DNA of 61,863 nucleotides, from NCBI GenBank assembly GCA_027324805.1, contig DAHVRZ010000004.1, positions 1 to 61,863 on the forward strand, written 5' to 3'. Positions 2,580 through 58,048 of the stretch are shown here, one piece after another. The translations under genes were made by a program, and so were the position numbers. Under the pieces are notes generated by a model. It ran no database searches. It saw only the letters and a program-made list of their open reading frames with translations, and was not told the DNA's origin. Numbering within the stretch: the first letter of the stretch is position 1; each line of letters begins with the position of its first letter. This DNA comes from Candidatus Parcubacteria bacterium. Its GTDB lineage: Bacteria; Patescibacteriota; Minisyncoccia; UBA6257; 2-01-FULL-56-20.

Positions 2580-3062
2580 TCAGGAATTTTTTCGCGCAGA
2601 TGCCGCAGGGTTCAAACGCCAGGTTTCATAATTCAATATTGTTGCAAAAGCCACCCAAAGCATATAAGGAACCATGAGCCAGGCGGCAAGAGTATTGATC
2701 CCAAAAAAAAGAATAATGGCCGCAATAATACAAAGAAGGAGGGCGATAAGTTCAGCGAGTGCCGCGCCAAGGCGCTTTGCTCCAAAAAACAACGGCGTCC
2801 AAACGGCATTGAGTGCGAGCTGGACCACAAAAACATCGAATGCCGTCCCTATTCCATTCGATTGGAACACAAAATATGCCGCTATCCCCTGCAATGCATA
2901 AAGGATCGTCCAAACCGGCCCGAAGATCCAGTTTGGCGGATTGAAGGACGGCTTCTTCAGTTTGGCATACCACCCGGGAATCGCGCGCACCGTAAAAAAA
3001 CTTCCGCTTACTCCAACCGCTTCGCATACAACCACAAAGATAAAAAGCAATATCCAGTCCAT
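2580..3062 (-). CDS. tspO: TspO/MBR family tryptophan-rich sensory protein
   Basis: WYAKLKKPSFNPPNWIFGPVWTILY and LNAVWTPLFF motifs with five hydrophobic helices. Start trimmed to the ATG at 3062 (MDWILL), which clears the upstream MFS gene. Confidence 0.8.
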   Translation of the reverse strand: MDWILLFIFVVVCEAVGVSGSFFTVRAIPGWYAKLKKPSFNPPNWIFGPVWTILYALQGIAAYFVFQSNGIGTAFDVFVVQLALNAVWTPLFFGAKRLGAALAELIALLLCIIAAIILFFGINTLAAWLMVPYMLWVAFATILNYETWRLNPAASARKNS

Positions 3063-16094: not shown

Positions 16095-16850
16095 TTATTT
16101 CTTCTTCGCCGGAGCCTTCTTCTTCGCCTCGGCCTTCGGTGCTTCGAACTCCTTTACCTCGACGACGCCCACTTTTTCGAAATGGTCCTTTAGGATCACC
16201 GAAGCCTTATGGAGCGCGGAGGAGGGGCTGATGGTGCCGTTGGTACCGATCTCGATGCGAAGCTTGTTGTAGTCGGTGCGATCCCCTACGCGCATATCAT
16301 CAACCGTGTAGTTCACGCGGATGACCGGCGTGAAGATGGCGTCGATCGCGATCGTGCCGATCGGGAGACGACCCTCCGTGCGGCGGCCCTCCGAGGCAAC
16401 ATAGCCGAGCCCGCGCTCGACACGCACCTCAATATCGATCTCCGCGTCCTTGGCGGTGAGATGGCCGAGCACTTCATCGGGATTTATGAGTTCGACATCG
16501 GAATTGATCTCGATATCGCCGCCTGTGATCTCGCCCTCGCCCTTCATCTTGAGCGAAAGGACCTGAGGTTCGTCGGTGTGCATTCGGAAATACAGCTTTT
16601 TGAAATTGAGCGAAAACTCGACGATGTCTTCCTGAAGTCCGGGGAGGGTAGAAAATTCGTGGGGCACACCCTTGATTTTAATCTCCGTCACCGCAGCGCC
16701 CGGCAGGGATGAAAGAAGTGCGCGGCGAAGTGCGGTACCGACCGTAAGGCCGTAGCCCGCGTAAAGGCCTTCGATCTCGAAGATGCCTTCCTTCGCATCC
16801 TCGGAGATGGTTTTTATGGAAACACTCGAACTGAGATGGGAGAACTCCAT
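16095..16850 (-). CDS. rpoA: DNA-directed RNA polymerase alpha subunit, N-terminal domain only
   Basis: GYGLTVGTALRRALLSSLPGAAV and the dimerisation/insert-domain pattern. It ends in a Lys/Ala tail (APKAEAKKKAPAKKK) about 250 aa in, with no HhH C-terminal domain. Start trimmed to MEFSHL. Confidence 0.9.
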   Translation of the reverse strand: MEFSHLSSSVSIKTISEDAKEGIFEIEGLYAGYGLTVGTALRRALLSSLPGAAVTEIKIKGVPHEFSTLPGLQEDIVEFSLNFKKLYFRMHTDEPQVLSLKMKGEGEITGGDIEINSDVELINPDEVLGHLTAKDAEIDIEVRVERGLGYVASEGRRTEGRLPIGTIAIDAIFTPVIRVNYTVDDMRVGDRTDYNKLRIEIGTNGTISPSSALHKASVILKDHFEKVGVVEVKEFEAPKAEAKKKAPAKKK

Positions 16851-44849: not shown

Positions 44850-44920
44850 ACTCAGCGGCGAAAAAGTTTTATACTGTGCCATACGACACAAGGAACGACG
44901 CGCCTTTGCGCGTTCTTATT

Positions 44921-46384
44921 ATGCCCATGGCAAACGAAGTCATTCTCAGGTTTAACGAAGTCACCTTCGAATACGGCAAAAAGAAGATCCTCGACGAGGC
45001 GGTGTTTTCGCTGCGGCGAGGGATGAAGATGACCCTCATGGGACAGAATGGCGCGGGTAAGACGACCATATTCCGGCTCATTACAGGAGAATTACACCCC
45101 GAGGAGGGCGGCATCGTGCTCGAGAACGGCATGACAATGGCGATCGCAAAGCAGGTCATTCCCCGCGACCTCCTCGACCGCACGGTTCTGGCATTTTTCG
45201 AAAGCGCGTTTCCCGGCAAAAAAGTATACGACATCGAACCGCGCATCAAGAAAGTGCTCGATATCGTGAACCTTTCGGCCCCGCTCGACCGCACGCTCCG
45301 CACGTTCTCCGGAGGCCAGCAGGCCCGTCTCCTCCTCGCACAGGCGCTCATCCAGGACCCCGACCTCCTGCTCCTCGACGAGCCGACGAACAACCTCGAT
45401 AAAGCCGGTATCGAACACCTCACGAAGTTCCTACAGGAATCGAAGAAAACCGTGATCGTGATCTCTCACGATGCCGACTTCCTGAACGCCTTTACGCAGG
45501 GCGTGCTATATCTCGATGTTTTCACGAAAAAAATCGAACAGTACGTCGGCAACTATTTCGACGTCGTACGCGAGATATCCGCCCGCCTCGAACGCGAACG
45601 CATGAAGAAGGTGCGGCTTGAAAAGGATATACAGCACCGCAAGGATCAGGCGAACTTTTTTGCGCAGAAAGGCGGCCATATGCGCGACGTCGCGCGCAAA
45701 ATGTGGGAAAGGATCGACGAACTCGAGGAGGATATCCCCGAAGAACGCCACGAGGACCGCACGATCCGCAATTTCGCCATCCCGATGCAGGGAGAAGTTT
45801 CCGGCAAGATCATTGAGATCGATGCCGTCTCCGTCGTAAAGAACCATAAGCCGGCGCAGAAAAAACTCGCACACCCCATCACGCTCAAAAAAGGCGAACG
45901 TCTCCGCCTTGAAGGACCGAATGGTATCGGAAAAACCACGCTCCTTGAAGCGCTTGCCACGGGCAAAGCGAAGGGCGTGACGATCGAACCCGGTACGAAG
46001 ATCGGCTATTACCGCCAGGATTTCTCGACGCTCGATTTCGATGACACCGTCTGGCATGCGCTCGCCGACGCCATGAAGGAAGGCAACGAAGAGAAGCTCC
46101 GATCCCACGCGGCAGGCTTTCTCCTTGATGCCGAAACATTGCGTTCGAAGATAGGATCGCTCTCCGAAGGCCAAAAAGGTCTTGTGGCCTTCGCGAAACT
46201 TTCACTCGAGGCCCCGGGACTCCTCATCCTCGACGAACCGACGAACCACATTAACTTTCGCCATCTCCCCATTATCGCCGCCGCACTCGACCGCTACGAA
46301 GGCGCAATGATCCTCGTAAGCCACATGGAGGAATTCGTAAAACAGATCAGGATCGACTACACGCTGGACCTCGGTTCACTCTGA
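44921..46384 (+). CDS. ABC-F family ATPase
   Basis: Two ABC cassettes (GQNGAGKTT and GPNGIGKTT, LSGGQ-type signatures FSGGQQ and LSEGQK), no TM domain. Start set to the ATG at 44921. Confidence 0.9.
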   Translation: MPMANEVILRFNEVTFEYGKKKILDEAVFSLRRGMKMTLMGQNGAGKTTIFRLITGELHPEEGGIVLENGMTMAIAKQVIPRDLLDRTVLAFFESAFPGKKVYDIEPRIKKVLDIVNLSAPLDRTLRTFSGGQQARLLLAQALIQDPDLLLLDEPTNNLDKAGIEHLTKFLQESKKTVIVISHDADFLNAFTQGVLYLDVFTKKIEQYVGNYFDVVREISARLERERMKKVRLEKDIQHRKDQANFFAQKGGHMRDVARKMWERIDELEEDIPEERHEDRTIRNFAIPMQGEVSGKIIEIDAVSVVKNHKPAQKKLAHPITLKKGERLRLEGPNGIGKTTLLEALATGKAKGVTIEPGTKIGYYRQDFSTLDFDDTVWHALADAMKEGNEEKLRSHAAGFLLDAETLRSKIGSLSEGQKGLVAFAKLSLEAPGLLILDEPTNHINFRHLPIIAAALDRYEGAMILVSHMEEFVKQIRIDYTLDLGSL

Positions 46385-46761
46385 TTCCTTTCGAGATCGA
46401 GACAAATCGAATTGATGCAGTAGCGCTTCCCGCCCTTATCGGCGGGACCGTCGTCGAAGACGTGGCCGAGATGCGAGCCGCAGTGTCTGCAGACCACTTC
46501 CGTTCGATGCATGCCGTACGCGTCGTCGTCGCGCAGTTCCACGTTCGCGAGATTCGCTGGCTCGGTGAAGCTCGGCCATCCCGTGCCGGAATCGAACTTC
46601 GCGTCGGATGAAAAAAGCTCGGTGCCGCAGATCGCGCACTTGTACATCCCCTTCGCATGTTCGTCCACATAGTTCCCGGCGAATGGCGCCTCGGTCGCGC
46701 CTTCGCGCGCCACCTTGTAGAGTTCGGGGTCCTTCGCCTTCAATTCGTCGTCGTTTTTCAT
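46357..46761 (-). CDS. msrB: peptide-methionine (R)-S-oxide reductase MsrB
   Basis: CAICGTELF ... GWPSF ... CRHCGSHLGHVF. The start overlaps the msrA stop (TAATG). Confidence 0.9.
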   Translation of the reverse strand: MKNDDELKAKDPELYKVAREGATEAPFAGNYVDEHAKGMYKCAICGTELFSSDAKFDSGTGWPSFTEPANLANVELRDDDAYGMHRTEVVCRHCGSHLGHVFDDGPADKGGKRYCINSICLDLERNQSEPRSSV

Positions 46762-47306
46762 TATTTTGATTTTTCTTTCAATAAATCGGCAAATCGCTTC
46801 TGCAGTTTCTCCACCTTCGGTTCGATGATCATTTGGCAATAGCCGGCATTCGGATTCCTCTTATAATACTCGCGGTGGTACTCCTCAGCATCATAAAATG
46901 CACCGTCCCATTTAATGATCTCCGTGACGACCGGCTTGCCGCCGGGATCGGATGCCTCAAGGCCTTTTATGAACTGTTTCGCCTCATCGCGCTGGGCGTC
47001 GGTCGTATAAAATATGGCCGAACGATACTGCGTGCCGATATCGGCCCCCTGCCGGTTGAGTGTCGTAGGATCGTGCGTCGCAAAGAACACCGTAAGGAGA
47101 TCGCGGAACGAGACCTCCGCCGGATCGAACTCGGTGCGGATCGCTTCCGCATGGCCCGTCTCGCCGGTGCACACCTGTTCATAGGTGGGATTCGGTACCG
47201 TGCCTCCCGTATAACCGGGCATTACGGACGCCACGCCGCGCAGGTTCTCGAAGACCGCTTCCGTACACCAAAAACATCCGCCCGCAAATATCGCCGTTTC
47301 CGTCAT
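46761..47306 (-). CDS. msrA: peptide-methionine (S)-S-oxide reductase MsrA
   Basis: AIFAGGCFWCTEAVF active-site motif. Start trimmed to MTETAIF. Confidence 0.9.
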   Translation of the reverse strand: MTETAIFAGGCFWCTEAVFENLRGVASVMPGYTGGTVPNPTYEQVCTGETGHAEAIRTEFDPAEVSFRDLLTVFFATHDPTTLNRQGADIGTQYRSAIFYTTDAQRDEAKQFIKGLEASDPGGKPVVTEIIKWDGAFYDAEEYHREYYKRNPNAGYCQMIIEPKVEKLQKRFADLLKEKSK

Positions 47307-47408
47307 ATCCTCATTCTCCCATGGAAGCCAATGGGCTCGCAAATCGTTGACGTGGCATAGCCGGGCATATATGCTATCCGAAGAAACCGAAAGAAGGAGG
47401 TAACGGAA

Positions 47409-47807
47409 ATGCATACTTCGGAAACCCTTTGGTTGTTCCTTAAGGAGAAAGAGAAGCACTATGCCGAAGCTGCGCAAAGGGAAGCCGAAAAGTTAGGGCT
47501 CCTTGCGCCGCGACAGCGGATCCGCTGCCAGCTTGCCGCATACGCAACGCTCCTCGAGGATCCCAAGTTCACGAATATGCCTCCCATGAAGTTCTTCACG
47601 CCGGAACTGTTCCGCGAGGCGGGAAGCGAGGCGCGATCGAACCTCATCAAAATAGATTATCTCTGTCGTAATCGCGGGATCGCGACGATGGGGGCGTTCA
47701 TGCGCCTGACCCGGACGGAGATTTTAAAATCGAAAAATATGGGGAAAGGATCCCTCGGATCGATCGACCGATGCCTTGCCCATGTCGGACTCGCTCTCAA
47801 CCCGTAA
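47409..47807 (+). CDS. stand-alone RNA polymerase alpha C-terminal-domain-like (HhH) protein
   Basis: The C-terminal 55 aa, IATMGAFMRLTRTEILKSKNMGKGSLGSIDRCLAHVGLAL, align position-for-position with E. coli alpha-CTD [40 protein letters not shown]. GGAGG lies 8 nt upstream of the ATG. Confidence 0.65.
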   Translation: MHTSETLWLFLKEKEKHYAEAAQREAEKLGLLAPRQRIRCQLAAYATLLEDPKFTNMPPMKFFTPELFREAGSEARSNLIKIDYLCRNRGIATMGAFMRLTRTEILKSKNMGKGSLGSIDRCLAHVGLALNP

Positions 47808-47838
47808 CACGCCTGCGCCGTTGCGGGCTTTTTTATCC

Positions 47839-49671
47839 CTATTCCGCGGAAGCCGCCGTTCGGCCGGCCTTCTTGCGTTCGCTCTCGTTGAGATATTTCT
47901 TGCGGATGCGGATGCTCTGCGGCGTGATCTCGACGAGTTCTTCGTCGTCGATGTAATCAAGTGCGTCCTCGAGCGACATTGTGACCGGAACCTCAAGCTG
48001 ATCAGCAAGGCCTTCGTTCTTGGCACGGAAGTTCGTAAGCTGCTTTTCGCGGGCCACGTGGACGAGAATATCCCCTTCCTTCGCGTTCTCGCCGACAACC
48101 ATGCCTTCGTATACCGCAACGCCGGCGCTGATGAAAAGCTTGCCGCGGCCCTGCGCCGTCACAAGTCCGTAGTTGTTCGAAACTCCTTGCTGGGTCGCCA
48201 CGATCGATCCGTGCGGGATTGCCGTGATATCCCCCTTATACGGCTGGTAACCGAGGAAAATACTATTCATGATGCCGGTGCCTTTGGTCGCGGTGAGGAA
48301 ACGATTGCGGAGGCCGATGAGGCCGCGCGTGGGCGTTTCGAATTCCATAAAGGCATTGCCTTTATCATCCACGCGCATATTGCGCATGACGCCGAGGCGC
48401 TTCCCAAGCATCTCGATCACCGTGCCGGAATACGCTTCGGGGACCTCGACAGACACCAGCTCGATCGGTTCCGTCTTTTTGCCGTTCTCTTCCTTGTAGA
48501 TGACCTGCGGCTTGGAAACTTCCATCTCGAAACCTTCGCGGCGCATCTTTTCGATGAGGATCGCAAGGTGCAATTCTCCGCGGCCCGCGACCGTCCACCG
48601 GTCAGTGGTATCCATGGTTGTTACGGCAAGCGCGACGTCGGTCTCGAGCTCCTTTTTGAGGCGGTCGCTGATCTGGCGCGACGTGGTGAACTTTCCTTCC
48701 TTGCCGCGGAACGGCGACGTATTCACGCTGAACGTCATCTTGATCGTCGGTTCATCGATATGGATGGTCGGCAACGCCACAGGATTCTCCAGGTCCGCAA
48801 TCGTCTCACCGATCGAAATATCGGGAATACCCGCGATCGCGACGATCTCACCCGCCCCGACGGAGTCAACATCAACACGGCCAAGGCCGTCGAACACCAT
48901 CACCGAGGTGATCGATGCCTTTTTGATCTCGCCCGAGCGCGTGATATGCGCGACGGACATCGCCTTCTTGAGCGTACCGGAATAGATGCGGCCGATCGCG
49001 ATCTTACCTTTATAATTATCGTTCGCAAGGTTCACCGTGAGCATCTGCAGCACATTTTCCATATCGGCGGCGGGCTTCTGCGGCGGCGGAAGATGGTTGA
49101 TGATCGCCTCGAAAACCGGCTCGATGTCCTTCATGGACGAAAGGTCGTTCTTGAGGCCGGCTTTGCCTTGCACGCCGGATGCATAAATGATCGGGAACTC
49201 GATCTGCTCTTCCGTGGCATCGAGTTCGAAGAAAAGATCGTAGGTTGCGTTGAGCGCCCATTCGGGACGGGCATCCGGCTTATCGATCTTGTTCACGACA
49301 ACGACCACCTTATGGCCGGCTTGGATCGCTTTGCGGAGAACGAACTTCGTCTGCGGCATCGGACCTTCCTTGGCGTCGATAAGCAGCAGCACGCCGTCCA
49401 CCATGCGCATGATGCGCTCCACCTCGCCGCCGAAATCAGCGTGGCCCGGAGTGTCCACGATATTGATCTTCGTGTCCTTGTACACTACCGATGCATTCTT
49501 GGAAAAGATGGTGATGCCACGCTCGCGCTCAAGCTCGTTGGAGTCCATGATGAGATCGGTCGTCGCGCCGCTCTTCTGGTGAAAGCTCAGGGACTGCTTC
49601 AATAAGGCATCGACGAGAGTCGTCTTGCCGTGGTCAACGTGGGCGATAATGGCGATGTTGCGGATATCCAT
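47839..49671 (-). CDS. typA: translational GTPase TypA/BipA
   Basis: NIAIIAHVDHGKTTLVD, DTPGHADF and EF-G-like domains. Confidence 0.95.
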   Translation of the reverse strand: MDIRNIAIIAHVDHGKTTLVDALLKQSLSFHQKSGATTDLIMDSNELERERGITIFSKNASVVYKDTKINIVDTPGHADFGGEVERIMRMVDGVLLLIDAKEGPMPQTKFVLRKAIQAGHKVVVVVNKIDKPDARPEWALNATYDLFFELDATEEQIEFPIIYASGVQGKAGLKNDLSSMKDIEPVFEAIINHLPPPQKPAADMENVLQMLTVNLANDNYKGKIAIGRIYSGTLKKAMSVAHITRSGEIKKASITSVMVFDGLGRVDVDSVGAGEIVAIAGIPDISIGETIADLENPVALPTIHIDEPTIKMTFSVNTSPFRGKEGKFTTSRQISDRLKKELETDVALAVTTMDTTDRWTVAGRGELHLAILIEKMRREGFEMEVSKPQVIYKEENGKKTEPIELVSVEVPEAYSGTVIEMLGKRLGVMRNMRVDDKGNAFMEFETPTRGLIGLRNRFLTATKGTGIMNSIFLGYQPYKGDITAIPHGSIVATQQGVSNNYGLVTAQGRGKLFISAGVAVYEGMVVGENAKEGDILVHVAREKQLTNFRAKNEGLADQLEVPVTMSLEDALDYIDDEELVEITPQSIRIRKKYLNESERKKAGRTAASAE

Positions 49672-56003: not shown

Positions 56004-56079
56004 TGGAGCCACCTCCCGGATTCGAACCGGGGACCTTTGCTTTACGAAAGCACTGCTCTACCAGCTGAGCTAAGGTGGC
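56004..56079 (-). tRNA. tRNA-Thr (anticodon CGT), CCA encoded
   Basis: Hand-folded cloverleaf: acceptor gccacct/aggtggc, T arm cccgg-ttcgaat-ccggg, anticodon loop ttCGTaa. Confidence 0.88.
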
Positions 56080-56162
56080 AAACCGACCTCGCACTATCCA
56101 AGAAAATATAACCAAAATGGGGCGGTTATGCAATACGGGCACAGGGTGATACCATTGGGAAT

Positions 56163-56759
56163 ATGCCAAGGGAAATAGTTCCGTTCGAAAAGTTGCAGCA
56201 GCTCGTCCTGGACCTCGCGAAAGTCCGACGGAACCACCGCATGCCGGGAGACGAACGCCGCGAAAACGTGGTCGAGCACAGCTTTGCGATTGCAATGCTT
56301 TCCTGGAAAATGTTTGAAATGACAAAGCCGCCGCTTTCTCTGGAAAAGGTCCTGAAATATGCCCTGATCCATGATTCCCTCGAACGCGGCATGGAATACG
56401 ATGTGAACACGTATGCCGGCGATGCGGAACGCAAAGCGAAAAAGGAAAGGGAGTCGAAGGAGCTCGAATCGCTCAATGGAGAATTCCTCGATTTTGCGGG
56501 GTTCACATCGTCACTGAACGGCTACGAAGAGCGGAAAGACGAAGAGGCATTGTTCGTCTGGAGCGTGGATAAGCTCCAGGCAAAGATATTGGGAGGAATG
56601 GACGCCTGGCGGCCCTATCGCCTTTATGGAGTGGGCTATGGCGATTTCTGCAGGAAGGGCGAAGAGCAGTTGGAGAAATGCTCGCCATACCTCAAAGAGA
56701 TATTCCGAGGCGTCTTCGAAGAAAGCAAAAAAACCTATTACGACCGGCCGAAAAACTGA
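56163..56759 (+). CDS. HD domain phosphohydrolase (YfbR-like 5'-nucleotidase type)
   Basis: ENVVEHSFAIAML and ALIHDSLE supply the H...HD...D pattern. Confidence 0.75.
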   Translation: MPREIVPFEKLQQLVLDLAKVRRNHRMPGDERRENVVEHSFAIAMLSWKMFEMTKPPLSLEKVLKYALIHDSLERGMEYDVNTYAGDAERKAKKERESKELESLNGEFLDFAGFTSSLNGYEERKDEEALFVWSVDKLQAKILGGMDAWRPYRLYGVGYGDFCRKGEEQLEKCSPYLKEIFRGVFEESKKTYYDRPKN

Positions 56760-56763
56760 GGTG

Positions 56764-56848
56764 CGGAGGGGGTGAGATTCGAACTCACGATACCTTTCGG
56801 TATGACGGTTTTCAAGACCGTTGCCTTAAACCGCTCGGCCACCCCTCC
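56764..56848 (-). tRNA. tRNA-Ser (anticodon TGA)
   Basis: Long variable arm (atacc-gaaa-ggtat), anticodon loop ctTGAaa, T arm gtgag-ttcgaat-ctcac. Confidence 0.85.
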
Positions 56849-56865
56849 AGCATTGTCCGTATCTG

Positions 56866-56936
56866 TGGACCCACGGGGAATCGAACCCCGACCTCCTCCA
56901 TGCCATGGAGGCGTAATACCATTTTACTATGAGCCC
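56866..56936 (-). tRNA. tRNA-Ala (anticodon GGC)
   Basis: G3:U70 identity pair in the acceptor stem, anticodon loop atGGCat, T arm cgggg-ttcgatt-ccccg. Confidence 0.8.
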
Positions 56937-57068
56937 GAAGTGAGAAGAAAATGAACGAATTCCTATTTGTTCACTTTCTTCGAACGAGGGCGCACAATGG
57001 CGAAGCCATTGCTGAGCCCGAAGCACAATTGCCATAGCGTTTTACGCCGTCTATAGTATAGAGGCAAA

Positions 57069-57140
57069 GCCCTCGTAGTTCAATGGATAGAACTGCTCAC
57101 TCCTAACGAGCCGATCGAGGTTCGATTCCTCGCGAGGGCA
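57069..57140 (+). tRNA. tRNA-Arg (anticodon CCT)
   Basis: Acceptor gccctcg/cgagggc, anticodon loop ctCCTaa, T arm cgagg-ttcgatt-cctcg. Confidence 0.85.
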
Positions 57141-57207
57141 CCGAGGATAAAAATGCACGATTTTCCGTGTATTTTTATTTGAGGCGCCGAACGAGGAATA
57201 TGAATAT

Positions 57208-57226
57208 ATTCCTCGCGAGGGCACCG
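57208..57226 (+). repeat. direct repeat of the tRNA-Arg 3' end
   Basis: attcctcgcgagggcaccg is identical to 57125-57143 (T-stem 3' half, acceptor 3' strand and 3 nt beyond). Confidence 0.75.
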
Positions 57227-57324
57227 GGAACAAACCGGTGACACTTTCCTTTTTAAGGAAAATGTGATACGATATCCCTTAGTCGCCTCGCCGCCCGCAC
57301 GGGCCAAAAGGCCATTTCCATAAG

Positions 57325-57738
57325 ATGGGGTCCAAAATGAGCAATATGATGAATGTGCATCACGCAATAAGCGAAGATGGGTTGTATATCCCCTTCGAAC
57401 CCCTAACAAGGACCGCCGCAAAGAATGATACGCCGCCGCCCCGCACCGCCGCCCGGTGTTGTGCCGACAAGAACCTCGAACGCAATGTTCAGCAATTGCT
57501 GGGAGGAATCCTGGCATATCATCAGCTCCGCTGGAATATCGCAACCGACCGGATGCAATCCTCGAACGACCCGGAAGAAGCGCACTTTCCGAGCAATTTG
57601 GAAGTGCAAAACGAATACGCGCGCGTACTTCTGCACGCAAGGACCTGCGTGACCTGCCTTATTAAACATGGAGGTGATATCTCGACGAACCATCTGAAGC
57701 TCTTGGGCATCCTGCAGCTGCCGACGGCAATCCACTGA
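57325..57738 (+). CDS. hypothetical protein
   Basis: 137-aa ORF between tRNA genes, followed by a terminator-like hairpin at 57768-57798. Confidence 0.4.
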   Translation: MGSKMSNMMNVHHAISEDGLYIPFEPLTRTAAKNDTPPPRTAARCCADKNLERNVQQLLGGILAYHQLRWNIATDRMQSSNDPEEAHFPSNLEVQNEYARVLLHARTCVTCLIKHGGDISTNHLKLLGILQLPTAIH

Positions 57739-57767
57739 TCGCATAGCCCGCCGGCAAAACCATAATC

Positions 57768-57798
57768 GGCGCGCCTCTCCCCCGGAGACGCGCCTTTT
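57768..57798 (+). terminator. rho-independent terminator-like hairpin
   Basis: ggcgcg..ctcc-ccc-ggag.cgcgcc followed by TTTT. Confidence 0.55.
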
Positions 57799-57870
57799 CC
57801 TTGCATATCCTTGAATTTCGATGCGGCTTCGTTTAATCTCATAAAGGCCCGTTTCTTTTGTTTGCAGAGC

Positions 57871-57957
57871 GGAGAGGTGGCTGAGTGGTCGAAGGCACCG
57901 CACTCGAAATGCGGCAGGCTCGCAAGGGCCTCGAGAGTTCGAATCTCTCCCTCTCCG
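57871..57957 (+). tRNA. tRNA-Ser (anticodon CGA)
   Basis: Long variable arm, anticodon loop ctCGAaa, T arm gagag-ttcgaat-ctctc. Confidence 0.85.
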
Positions 57958-58048
57958 CTTTGCACTATGAGTTGATGGACTTTTCATTCCATGGCACGTT
58001 TTCGAAAGATTTGCGAGGAGAACGGTTTTGACACAGAATAAGGACACC

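What the first reader, a model, noticed from the sequence alone, without database searches (positions are those of the whole stretch)
47409..47807. Orphan alpha-CTD-like protein: a candidate for the missing C-terminal domain of RNA polymerase alpha
- **Sequence:** the last ~55 residues, IATMGAFMRLTRTEILKSKNMGKGSLGSIDRCLAHVGLAL, match the helix-hairpin-helix core of bacterial alpha-CTD. E. coli reads [40 protein letters not shown]. The match is nearly position for position (IG, T..E.LK..N.GK.SL..I...LA..GL.L).
- **Context:** the rpoA gene in this same window (16095-16850) ends right after the N-terminal domain. The orphan protein has a ~75-aa N-terminal extension of unknown function and its own strong SD.
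- **Inference:** alpha may be split into two polypeptides here. Alternatively this is an alpha-CTD mimic that docks UP-element DNA or activators, in trans or competitively. Either would change how promoters and activators contact RNAP in this lineage.
Basis: partly seen in the sequence, partly recalled or inferred. Interest (0 to 1): 0.72.

Follow-up and report, generated by a model that had tools for sequence, protein, structure and literature searches.

The report
Fast-evolving orphan alpha-CTD-fold protein
A small basic protein in this Parcubacteria genome really does carry the fold of the RNA polymerase alpha C-terminal domain that the lineage's own alpha subunit lacks, but it is a patchy, fast-evolving accessory gene and not the missing half of alpha.

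Summary
ORF 47409-47807 (+) is a real, selected gene (dN/dS 0.16-0.24). Its C-terminal ~75 residues have the RNAP alpha-CTD fold. The family profile hits only alpha subunits in the PDB (E 4e-7). The AF2 model has pLDDT 92.5, and the top 50 listed Foldseek hits are all RNAP alpha. The window's rpoA (16095-16850, -) has only the N-terminal domain and ends in a Lys-rich tail.

The "split alpha" inference fails its own co-variation test:
- CTD-less rpoA is clade-wide in Parcubacteria. All 120 best homologues and more than 20 GTDB species have it, and one paper mentions the loss.
- The orphan family has only about a dozen known sequences.
- Between the window and a syntenic relative (rpoA 90%, typA 93% identical) the orphan is only 38-40% identical. 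Its dN is 0.67, against 0.066 for rpoA.
- Another relative with typA 93.6% identical has other genes in the same slot.

Best reading: a lineage-restricted, basic (pI 9.6) accessory DNA-binding protein. It combines an alpha-CTD-type helix-hairpin-helix domain with a family-specific N-terminal module. A basic residue at the E. coli R265 position and G296 are conserved. A trans-acting alpha-CTD in a subclade is not excluded (about 0.12). Function is inferred, not shown.

The parts
47409..47807 (+). Orphan gene: 132-aa basic protein (pI 9.6), with a family-specific N-terminal module followed by an alpha-CTD-fold domain
   Evidence: ORF. Three close homologues. dN/dS 0.16-0.24. pI.
47409..47573 (+). 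N-terminal module, about residues 1-55: long helix 3-28, then an extended segment 29-47. No known homologue.
   Evidence: AF2 secondary structure, with block-mean pLDDT 96-98 for residues 11-40. No Pfam or PDB match. Conserved across the family.
47574..47804 (+). Alpha-CTD-type helix-hairpin-helix domain, about residues 56-132. It includes the family hallmark M-P-x-x-F-F-T...A-G (57-72). K81 aligns with E. coli R265, G112 with G296, K113 with K297 and S115 with S299.
47394..47400 (+). Shine-Dalgarno sequence AAGGAGG, 8 nt upstream of the ATG
   Evidence: Read directly from the sequence.
47347..47375 (+). Sigma-70-like promoter match TTGACG-17-TATGCT, in the 108-bp spacer shared with the divergent msrA
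   Evidence: This is a consensus match only (1 found against 0.5 expected).
47811..47838 (+). Terminator-like hairpin GCCTGCG-CCGT-TGCGGGC followed by a T-run, lying between the orphan and the convergent typA
16095..16850 (-). rpoA encoding only the alpha N-terminal domain (251 aa). It sits in the rpsM-rpsK-rpsD-rpoA-rplQ operon.
16098..16154 (-). Lys-rich C-terminal tail of alpha (...EAPKAEAKKKAPAKKK), in the place where the linker and CTD would be
   Evidence: The same kind of tail is found in the more than 20 intact relatives.
46761..47300 (-). msrA, transcribed divergently from the orphan. It forms one side of the conserved slot.
47839..49671 (-). typA/bipA, convergent with the orphan. It forms the other side of the slot, and family members lie next to or near typA in the window, L001, L006, L002, L036-L039, L040 and L121-L123.

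Best explanation
The gene encodes a lineage-restricted accessory protein of a Parcubacteria (Paceibacteria) subclade. A complete alpha-CTD-type helix-hairpin-helix domain (about residues 56-132) is preceded by a family-specific module of about 55 residues, made of a long helix and an extended segment.

I infer that it binds DNA the way alpha-CTD does. A conserved basic side chain (K81, at the E. coli R265 position) would enter a narrow A/T-rich minor groove. The second hairpin (G112-K113-x-S115, matching G296-K297-K298-S299) would contact the backbone. The N-terminal module would supply oligomerisation or partner contacts.

I think it acts as a stand-alone small regulator or nucleoid-type protein, transcribed from its own promoter. 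I do not think it is a stoichiometric piece of RNA polymerase.

Shown here: the gene is real and under selection, it has the alpha-CTD fold and homology, the family is basic, its distribution is patchy, it evolves fast, and alpha lacks a CTD across the clade.

Inferred: DNA binding, the role of the N-terminal module, and independence from RNAP.
For: **Fold and homology**
- PF03118 is the only Pfam family hit. It matches 7 of 10 family members, best E 8.3e-8.
- The family profile against the PDB gives E 4e-7, with alpha subunits only among significant hits.
- The AF2 model has pLDDT 92.5 and pTM 0.65. All top 50 listed Foldseek PDB hits are RNAP alpha.

**DNA-binding features**
- K or R sits at the R265 position in 13 of 14 family sequences. 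The G296 equivalent is invariant. The K298 and S299 equivalents are partly kept.
- pI is 9-11 in 12 of 14 members, and the alpha-CTD-like half of the window protein has pI 10.0.

**A real gene**
- dN/dS is 0.16-0.24 over both halves.
- It has its own SD, promoter-like site and terminator-like hairpin.

**Accessory, not core**
- Only about 8 clusters of full-length relatives turned up among 1.84 billion representatives.
- A syntenic relative, GCA_027355945.1, carries a CTD-less rpoA on the same contig. Its orphan is 38-40% identical, against rpoA 90%, typA 93% and abcF 88%. dN is 0.67 for the orphan and 0.066 for rpoA.
- L126 (typA 93.6% identical) has DUF5670 and an FMN reductase in the slot instead.
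- Six further relatives with typA 78-84% identical have no member within 4 kb.

**The domain is used outside RpoA**
- L022 carries an M50 protease fused to a PF03118 domain, in a Parcubacterium.
- Proteins with up to 11 PF03118 repeats exist.
- Phage proteins of about 100-140 aa are annotated as alpha-CTD.
Against: - No DNA-binding or expression data exist.
- The N268 equivalent is not kept in the window protein (Y84), and K298 is Gly (G114).
- The window protein alone scores below the Pfam gathering threshold.
- I could not see model coordinates or PAE, so I do not know whether the N-terminal module packs on the domain.
- Absence from a slot does not prove absence from a genome.
- Fast divergence means the searches may have missed family members. 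The pattern scan of GTDB genomes missed the 38%-identical member that GCA_027355945.1 does carry.
Confidence: 0.55

Rival explanations
1. Trans-acting alpha-CTD (functional split of alpha). The N-terminal module docks on alpha-NTD, beta or beta-prime, or on sigma region 4, of the CTD-less polymerase. This supplies an UP-element-reading and activator-docking head, at least in the subclade that keeps the gene.
For: - The alpha-CTD fold sits in a lineage whose alpha has no CTD.
- The R265-position basic residue and G296 are kept.
- An extra N-terminal module of unknown role is conserved across the family.
- The orphan and the CTD-less rpoA co-occur on one contig in two genomes, the window and GCA_027355945.1.
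Against: - There is no co-variation. CTD-less rpoA is found in all 120 best homologues and in more than 20 GTDB species, against about a dozen orphan sequences.
- The orphan is absent from the slot in L126 and in L041-L046.
- Its dN is 10 times that of rpoA, which is unlike a partner of slowly evolving core subunits.
- It is 31 kb from rpoA on the other strand.
- The Lys-rich alpha tail common to the clade may already provide an upstream DNA contact (inference).
Confidence: 0.13
2. Conflict or host-interaction protein. An alpha-CTD mimic is used against another organism's or a phage's transcription machinery, for example to titrate alpha-CTD-binding factors. Its rapid turnover would then reflect an arms race.
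For: - Divergence between near relatives is extreme, and the gene shows presence/absence polymorphism at one slot.
- Stand-alone alpha-CTD proteins of similar size are annotated in phages.
- Patescibacteria are described as episymbionts or parasites of other microbes (abstracts listed).
Against: - dN/dS stays well below 1: 0.16-0.35.
- There is no PHROG match.
- The neighbours are housekeeping genes, not mobile or defence genes.
- No signal peptide is evident in the N-terminus (sequence).
- Foldseek matches to phage proteins are weak: E 0.05-0.5.
Confidence: 0.1
3. A protein-protein adaptor that uses the alpha-CTD fold as a docking surface, with no DNA binding. In other bacteria alpha-CTD also serves as a target for activators.
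For: - The most conserved family motif (M-P-x-x-F-F-T...A-G, residues 57-72) lies outside the canonical DNA-contact residues.
- The N268 and K298 equivalents are variable.
Against: - The family is strongly basic, with the charge concentrated on the alpha-CTD-like half.
- The basic residue at the R265 position and the hairpin Gly are conserved.
Confidence: 0.12
4. A spurious ORF or a chance HhH-like match.
For: - The single-sequence Pfam score is below the gathering threshold.
- No source annotates a domain for it.
Against: - It is under purifying selection.
- It keeps a conserved syntenic position.
- Family-profile E-values and the fold match both support homology.
- The AF2 model has high confidence.
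Confidence: 0.02

Closest known systems
C-terminal domain of bacterial RNA polymerase alpha subunit (RpoA alpha-CTD, Pfam PF03118; e.g. E. coli residues 249-329, PDB 1LB2, 3K4G, 3N4M)
   Same: - It has the same four-helix, double helix-hairpin-helix fold. TM is 0.6-0.78 on isolated CTD chains.
- Sequence homology is detectable: E 4e-7 with the family profile.
- A basic residue sits at the R265 position and the Gly at G296 is kept.
   Different: - It is not tethered to an alpha N-terminal domain.
- It carries an unrelated N-terminal module of about 55 aa.
- It has an insertion of about 17 residues (FFTPELFREAGSEARSN) before a lengthened helix 1.
- N268 and K298 are not kept in the window protein.
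- It is basic, whereas the E. coli CTD is acidic.
- It evolves fast and is patchily distributed.
Stand-alone or repeated PF03118-domain proteins outside RpoA: NCBIfam PRK07758 (95-aa hypothetical protein), phage proteins annotated 'RNA polymerase, alpha subunit, C-terminal', and multi-repeat proteins such as P0125
   Same: - In these proteins the alpha-CTD-type domain is used away from RpoA.
- Some phage proteins are of similar size, 98-139 aa.
- The function of these proteins is likewise uncharacterised.
   Different: - The window protein does not match PRK07758 (15.9 bits against a cut-off of 115).
- It matches no PHROG.
- Single-domain scores to the repeat proteins are at most 27 bits, no better than to true RpoA CTDs.
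- Its N-terminal module and hallmark motif are specific to the family.
CTD-less alpha subunits: Parcubacteria, the endosymbionts Hodgkinia and Tremblaya, and Euglena chloroplast rpoA (PMC8321222)
   Same: The window's rpoA belongs to this known phenomenon: only the N-terminal domain is present.
   Different: - That literature describes loss of the CTD, not a separately encoded CTD.
- The sentence on Parcubacteria cites Nelson and Stegen 2015. I found no mention of the polymerase in that paper's main text.
Francisella, with two non-identical alpha subunits (PMC3294249)
   Same: It is another lineage-specific departure from the standard alpha2 arrangement.
   Different: Both Francisella proteins are rpoA genes encoding alpha subunits, and the RNAP contains a heterodimer of the two (title and abstract as listed). 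Here there is a single CTD-less alpha plus an unlinked protein with the CTD fold.

Membership tests
RpoA (bacterial RNAP alpha subunit, TIGR02027 / PRK05182) | An N-terminal dimerisation and assembly domain (PF01193 + PF01000) in the same polypeptide | tested here: not met
   The orphan matches only the C-terminal 40-50 positions of the rpoA models, at 12-23 bits against cut-offs of 228-523. It has no PF01193 or PF01000 hit.
Pfam PF03118 RNA_pol_A_CTD (domain family) | Sequence score at or above the gathering threshold (23.8 bits) | tested here: inconclusive
   The window protein scores 20.6 bits, E 3.8e-4. Seven of 10 family members match at E<0.1, best 8.3e-8. The family profile against PDB alpha-CTDs gives E 4e-7.
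Pfam PF03118 RNA_pol_A_CTD (domain family) | The alpha-CTD fold: four helices forming two helix-hairpin-helix motifs | tested here: met
Pfam PF03118 RNA_pol_A_CTD (domain family) | The UP-element DNA-contact residues of E. coli alpha-CTD: R265, N268, G296, K298, S299 (residue list from established knowledge) | tested here: inconclusive
   In the window protein the equivalents are K81, Y84, G112, G114 and S115. Across 14 family sequences the 265 position is basic in 13 and G296 is invariant, while 268, 298 and 299 vary.
Split (fissioned) alpha subunit | Co-occurrence of the separate CTD gene with truncated rpoA across the lineage | tested here: not met
   Truncated rpoA is found in all 120 best homologues and in more than 20 GTDB species. 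The orphan family has about a dozen sequences. It is absent from the slot in L126 and in L041-L046.
Split (fissioned) alpha subunit | Evolutionary constraint comparable with that of core RNAP parts | tested here: not met
   For the window against GCA_027355945.1, dN is 0.67 for the orphan, 0.066 for rpoA and 0.043 for typA. Amino-acid identity is 40% against 90% and 93%.
Split (fissioned) alpha subunit | Physical association with RNA polymerase | not testable with these tools
   No multimer prediction or biochemistry was available.
NCBIfam NF005841 / PRK07758 (stand-alone alpha-CTD-like hypothetical protein) | Score at or above the model cut-off (115 bits) | tested here: not met
   15.9 bits, E 0.012.
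Phage stand-alone alpha-CTD proteins | Sequence or whole-fold similarity that includes the N-terminal part | tested here: not met
   Five family members have no PHROG match. BFVD Foldseek hits have E 0.05-0.5 and TM at most 0.47.

The most novel reading that the evidence does not exclude
In a subclade of Parcubacteria whose RNA polymerase alpha subunit has lost its C-terminal domain, this protein is a detachable alpha-CTD. Its N-terminal module docks on the CTD-less polymerase or on sigma. Its alpha-CTD-fold domain reads A/T-rich upstream DNA or receives activators. Upstream promoter contact would then be an optional, rapidly evolving, trans-supplied function.
Probability: 0.12. Interest if true: 0.8.

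Novelty: new variant of a known kind. Interest (0 to 1): 0.4.

Why it matters
Alpha-CTD is the main docking point for UP elements and class I activators in model bacteria. A large bacterial radiation does without it, yet how its promoters and regulators work is essentially unstudied.

This family shows that the alpha-CTD fold persists in that radiation as a free, basic, fast-evolving small protein. In another genome it persists as a fusion to a membrane protease. That gives concrete candidates for testing how CTD-less polymerases are regulated.

If the protein proves to be only an independent DNA-binding factor, it is a modest addition: a new small family built on a known domain. If it does dock on RNAP, it would be the first trans-supplied alpha-CTD.

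Tried and rejected
- **Split alpha.** Rejected on distribution, rate and slot polymorphism.
- **Another HhH family.** Rejected. Only PF03118 and RNAP alpha come up for the orphan family.
- **Specific kinship with multi-repeat PF03118 proteins.** These ranked high. Rejected, because their rank comes from summed repeats. The best single-domain scores are at most 27 bits.
- **Phage origin.** No PHROG match, only weak BFVD matches, and housekeeping neighbours.
- **N-terminal module.** No Pfam or PDB relative.
- **GTDB genome scans.**
  - With the 3-sequence alignment it found nothing. That scan sees only close relatives. It missed the 38%-identical member in GCA_027355945.1, so it is not evidence of absence.
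- **Word-indexed protein searches.** They returned only 3 and 6 family members.
- **Nelson and Stegen 2015.** It is cited elsewhere for alpha-CTD loss in Parcubacteria, but its main text does not mention the polymerase.
- **abcF row.** It was out of register and is discarded. redoes it properly.

Full report
**What is in the sequence**

ORF 47409-47807 (+) encodes 132 aa.
- AAGGAGG lies at 47394-47400, 8 nt before the ATG.
- A TTGACG-17-TATGCT match lies at 47347-47375, in the 108-bp spacer shared with the divergent msrA.
- A GC-rich hairpin followed by a T-run lies at 47811-47828, before the convergent typA.

It looks like a monocistronic unit. The flanking genes are ABC-F (44876-46384 +), msrB and msrA (-), and typA/bipA (47839-49671 -).

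**Is the alpha-CTD resemblance real?**

Yes.
- PF03118 is the only Pfam hit: E 3.8e-4, 20.6 bits, under the 23.8 gathering score.
- NCBIfam hits are the rpoA equivalogs, plus one weak match to the PRK07758 stand-alone model. All fall at the rpoA models' C-termini.
- phmmer against the PDB returns alpha subunits almost exclusively.
- An exhaustive profile search of 1.84 billion representative proteins found full-length relatives at 27-38% identity: P0124, P0135, P0136, P0163, P0176, P0150 and P0141.
- With the 10-sequence family alignment, PF03118 matches 7 of 10 members, best E 8.3e-8.
- The family profile hits E. coli alpha-CTD at E 4e-7, and every significant PDB hit is an alpha subunit.
- AlphaFold2 on that alignment gives pLDDT 92.5 and pTM 0.65.
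- Foldseek's top 50 PDB hits are all RNAP alpha. TM is 0.6-0.78 when normalised to isolated alpha-CTD chains, with alignments of 79-91 columns to CTD chains of 73-84 residues.
- The alpha-CTD-like fold therefore spans about residues 56-132, not only the last 55.

**Anatomy**

The N-terminal part is a long helix (residues 3-28) and a confident extended segment (29-47). It has no Pfam or PDB relative.

The family hallmark M-P-x-x-F-F-T...A-G (residues 57-72) lies in and next to an insertion of about 17 residues relative to canonical alpha-CTDs. It precedes a lengthened helix 1.

Mapping onto E. coli gives these equivalents:

| E. coli residue | Window protein | Across the family |
|---|---|---|
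| R265 | K81 | K or R in 13 of 14 |
| N268 | Y84 | variable |
| G296 | G112 | invariant |
| K297 | K113 | variable |
| K298 | G114 | variable |
| S299 | S115 | variable |

The family is basic: pI is 9-11 in 12 of 14 sequences. In the window protein the charge sits on the alpha-CTD-like half, which has pI 10.0.

**rpoA**

The window's rpoA (16095-16850, -) is 251 aa with PF01000 and PF01193 only. It ends in ...EAPKAEAKKKAPAKKK, and rplQ starts 34 nt after its stop. So the truncation is not a frameshift artefact. No other alpha-CTD-like ORF exists in the window.

The truncation is clade-wide:
- All 120 best homologues (76-100% identity) are 225-264 aa without PF03118. Where sources give an organism name, it is Pacebacteria or Paceibacterota.
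- In GTDB genomes, the more than 20 Parcubacteria-type species with an intact reading frame (59-92% identity, including Colwellbacteria) all end in a Lys-rich tail after the N-terminal domain.
- Collierbacteria (43-46% identity) keep a canonical CTD.
- One paper states in a sentence that alpha-CTD loss occurs in Parcubacteria (PMC8321222). I could not find the polymerase mentioned in the main text of the source it cites.

**The co-variation test**

The orphan family is tiny: about a dozen sequences in about 8 clusters at 50% identity.

Its genomic position is informative.
- Close homologues (75-81% identity) sit in the same slot, msrA | orphan | typA.
- A "type-2" form (P0124/P0185, 38% identity) occupies the same slot in several contigs. 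One of them is DAIEHA010000001.1 of GCA_027355945.1, which also carries a CTD-less rpoA.

For that genome pair (window against GCA_027355945.1) the divergence is as follows:

| Gene | Amino-acid identity | dN |
|---|---|---|
| rpoA | 90% | 0.066 |
| typA | 93% | 0.043 |
| abcF | 88% | 0.067 |
| msrB | 73% | 0.19 |
| orphan | 40% | 0.67 |

- A third relative (L126, typA 93.6% identical) has a DUF5670 gene and an FMN reductase in the slot and no orphan.
- Six more relatives (typA 78-84% identical) have none within 4 kb of typA.
- More distant members also lie beside or near typA (L002, L040). Others do not: L005 has different neighbours, and L003's are unidentified.
- Within the close trio dN/dS is 0.16-0.24 in both halves, so the gene is functional.

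A stoichiometric part of RNAP would not be expected to be this rare, this variable and dispensable among near relatives.

**The alpha-CTD fold as a reusable module**

- A Parcubacteria genome (L022) encodes the C-terminus of an M50 site-2 protease fused to a canonical PF03118 domain (44.5 bits). It lies 2.4 kb from a CTD-less rpoA.
- Proteins with up to 11 PF03118 repeats exist.
- Phage proteins of about 100-140 aa are annotated as alpha-CTD.
- The orphan's single-domain similarity to these (at most 27 bits) is no greater than to true RpoA CTDs. Its origin therefore cannot be resolved: an ancient fission remnant or a later acquisition are both possible.

**Most likely mechanism (inferred)**

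I read it as a small, basic, accessory DNA-binding protein that uses alpha-CTD-style minor-groove and backbone contacts. The N-terminal module would serve oligomerisation or partner binding. It would act as a local or global regulator or a nucleoid-type factor, not as part of the core enzyme (confidence about 0.55).

Rivals:
- a trans-acting alpha-CTD for the CTD-less polymerase in this subclade (about 0.13);
- a conflict or host-directed alpha-CTD mimic (about 0.1);
- a non-DNA-binding adaptor (about 0.12);
- an artefact (about 0.02).

The Lys-rich tail shared by all CTD-less alphas may itself give non-specific upstream DNA contact. That would lessen the need for a trans CTD. This is an inference and was not tested.

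**Limits**

- Only a 61.9-kb window was available, so a second rpoA elsewhere cannot be excluded.
- No multimer prediction, model coordinates or PAE were available.
- The family's fast divergence means the searches may under-count it.
- The GTDB pattern scan demonstrably missed a 38%-identical member.

**Verdict**

- Observation: confirmed.
- Interpretation: partly supported. The domain identity and the CTD-less alpha are right. "Split alpha" is not supported.
- Novelty: new variant of a known kind, namely a PF03118-type domain outside RpoA with a new N-terminal module and an insertion.
- Interest: 0.4.

Noticed in passing
window 16098-16154 (-); L007-L024 and L035 rpoA 3' ends: Every intact CTD-less Parcubacteria alpha subunit examined ends in a Lys-rich tail (for example ...EAPKAEAKKKAPAKKK) directly after the N-terminal domain. 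The tail might give non-specific upstream DNA contact in place of alpha-CTD.
   Followed up: partly
L022 6123-6590 (-): The C-terminus of a Peptidase_M50 (site-2 protease) is fused to a canonical PF03118 alpha-CTD domain (44.5 bits). It lies 2.4 kb downstream of a CTD-less rpoA in another Parcubacteria-type MAG. This is an unusual architecture that places an alpha-CTD fold on a membrane protease.
   Followed up: partly
window 47301-47838; L036 9873-10475; L121 2566-3238; L126 2652-3631: The slot next to typA varies among near relatives (typA 93-94% identical). It holds a type-1 orphan, a type-2 orphan (38-40% identity), or DUF5670 plus an FMN reductase with no orphan. msrA and msrB are also rearranged.
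   Followed up: yes
L025, L033, L034 (rpoA match regions from position 3001): The rpoA reading frames break after 24-140 codons in three MFD-named MAGs, although tblastn matches across the full length. These are probably indel errors in the assemblies and not pseudogenes.
   Followed up: no
L008, L009, L021, L022, L035 (titled Saccharibacteria); L026, L028, L032 (titled Gammaproteobacteria or Pseudomonadales): The record titles disagree with the gene content. The rpoA of the first group is Parcubacteria-type (CTD-less, 65-87% identical to the window). In the second group, L028 and L032 end in a CTD essentially identical to that of the named Collierbacteria records, and L026 is a CTD-bearing rpoA 48% identical to the window. 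The bins are probably mislabelled.
   Followed up: no
L005 64-507 (+), upstream of family member P0163: The neighbour looks like the C-terminal part of a RelA/SpoT-type protein. Together with the typA adjacency seen elsewhere, this means family members often sit beside stress or ribosome-associated GTPase genes. The significance is unknown.
   Followed up: no
window 56004-57958: A cluster of five tRNA genes on both strands: Thr-CGT, Ser-TGA, Ala-GGC, Arg-CCT and Ser-CGA.
   Followed up: no
L036 88-654 (-); L121 10001-10567 (+): A small sigma-70 family protein (188 aa, regions 2 and 4 only, ECF-like) lies about 7-9 kb from the orphan in the type-2 genomes. It could be relevant to how a CTD-less polymerase is regulated.
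   Followed up: no
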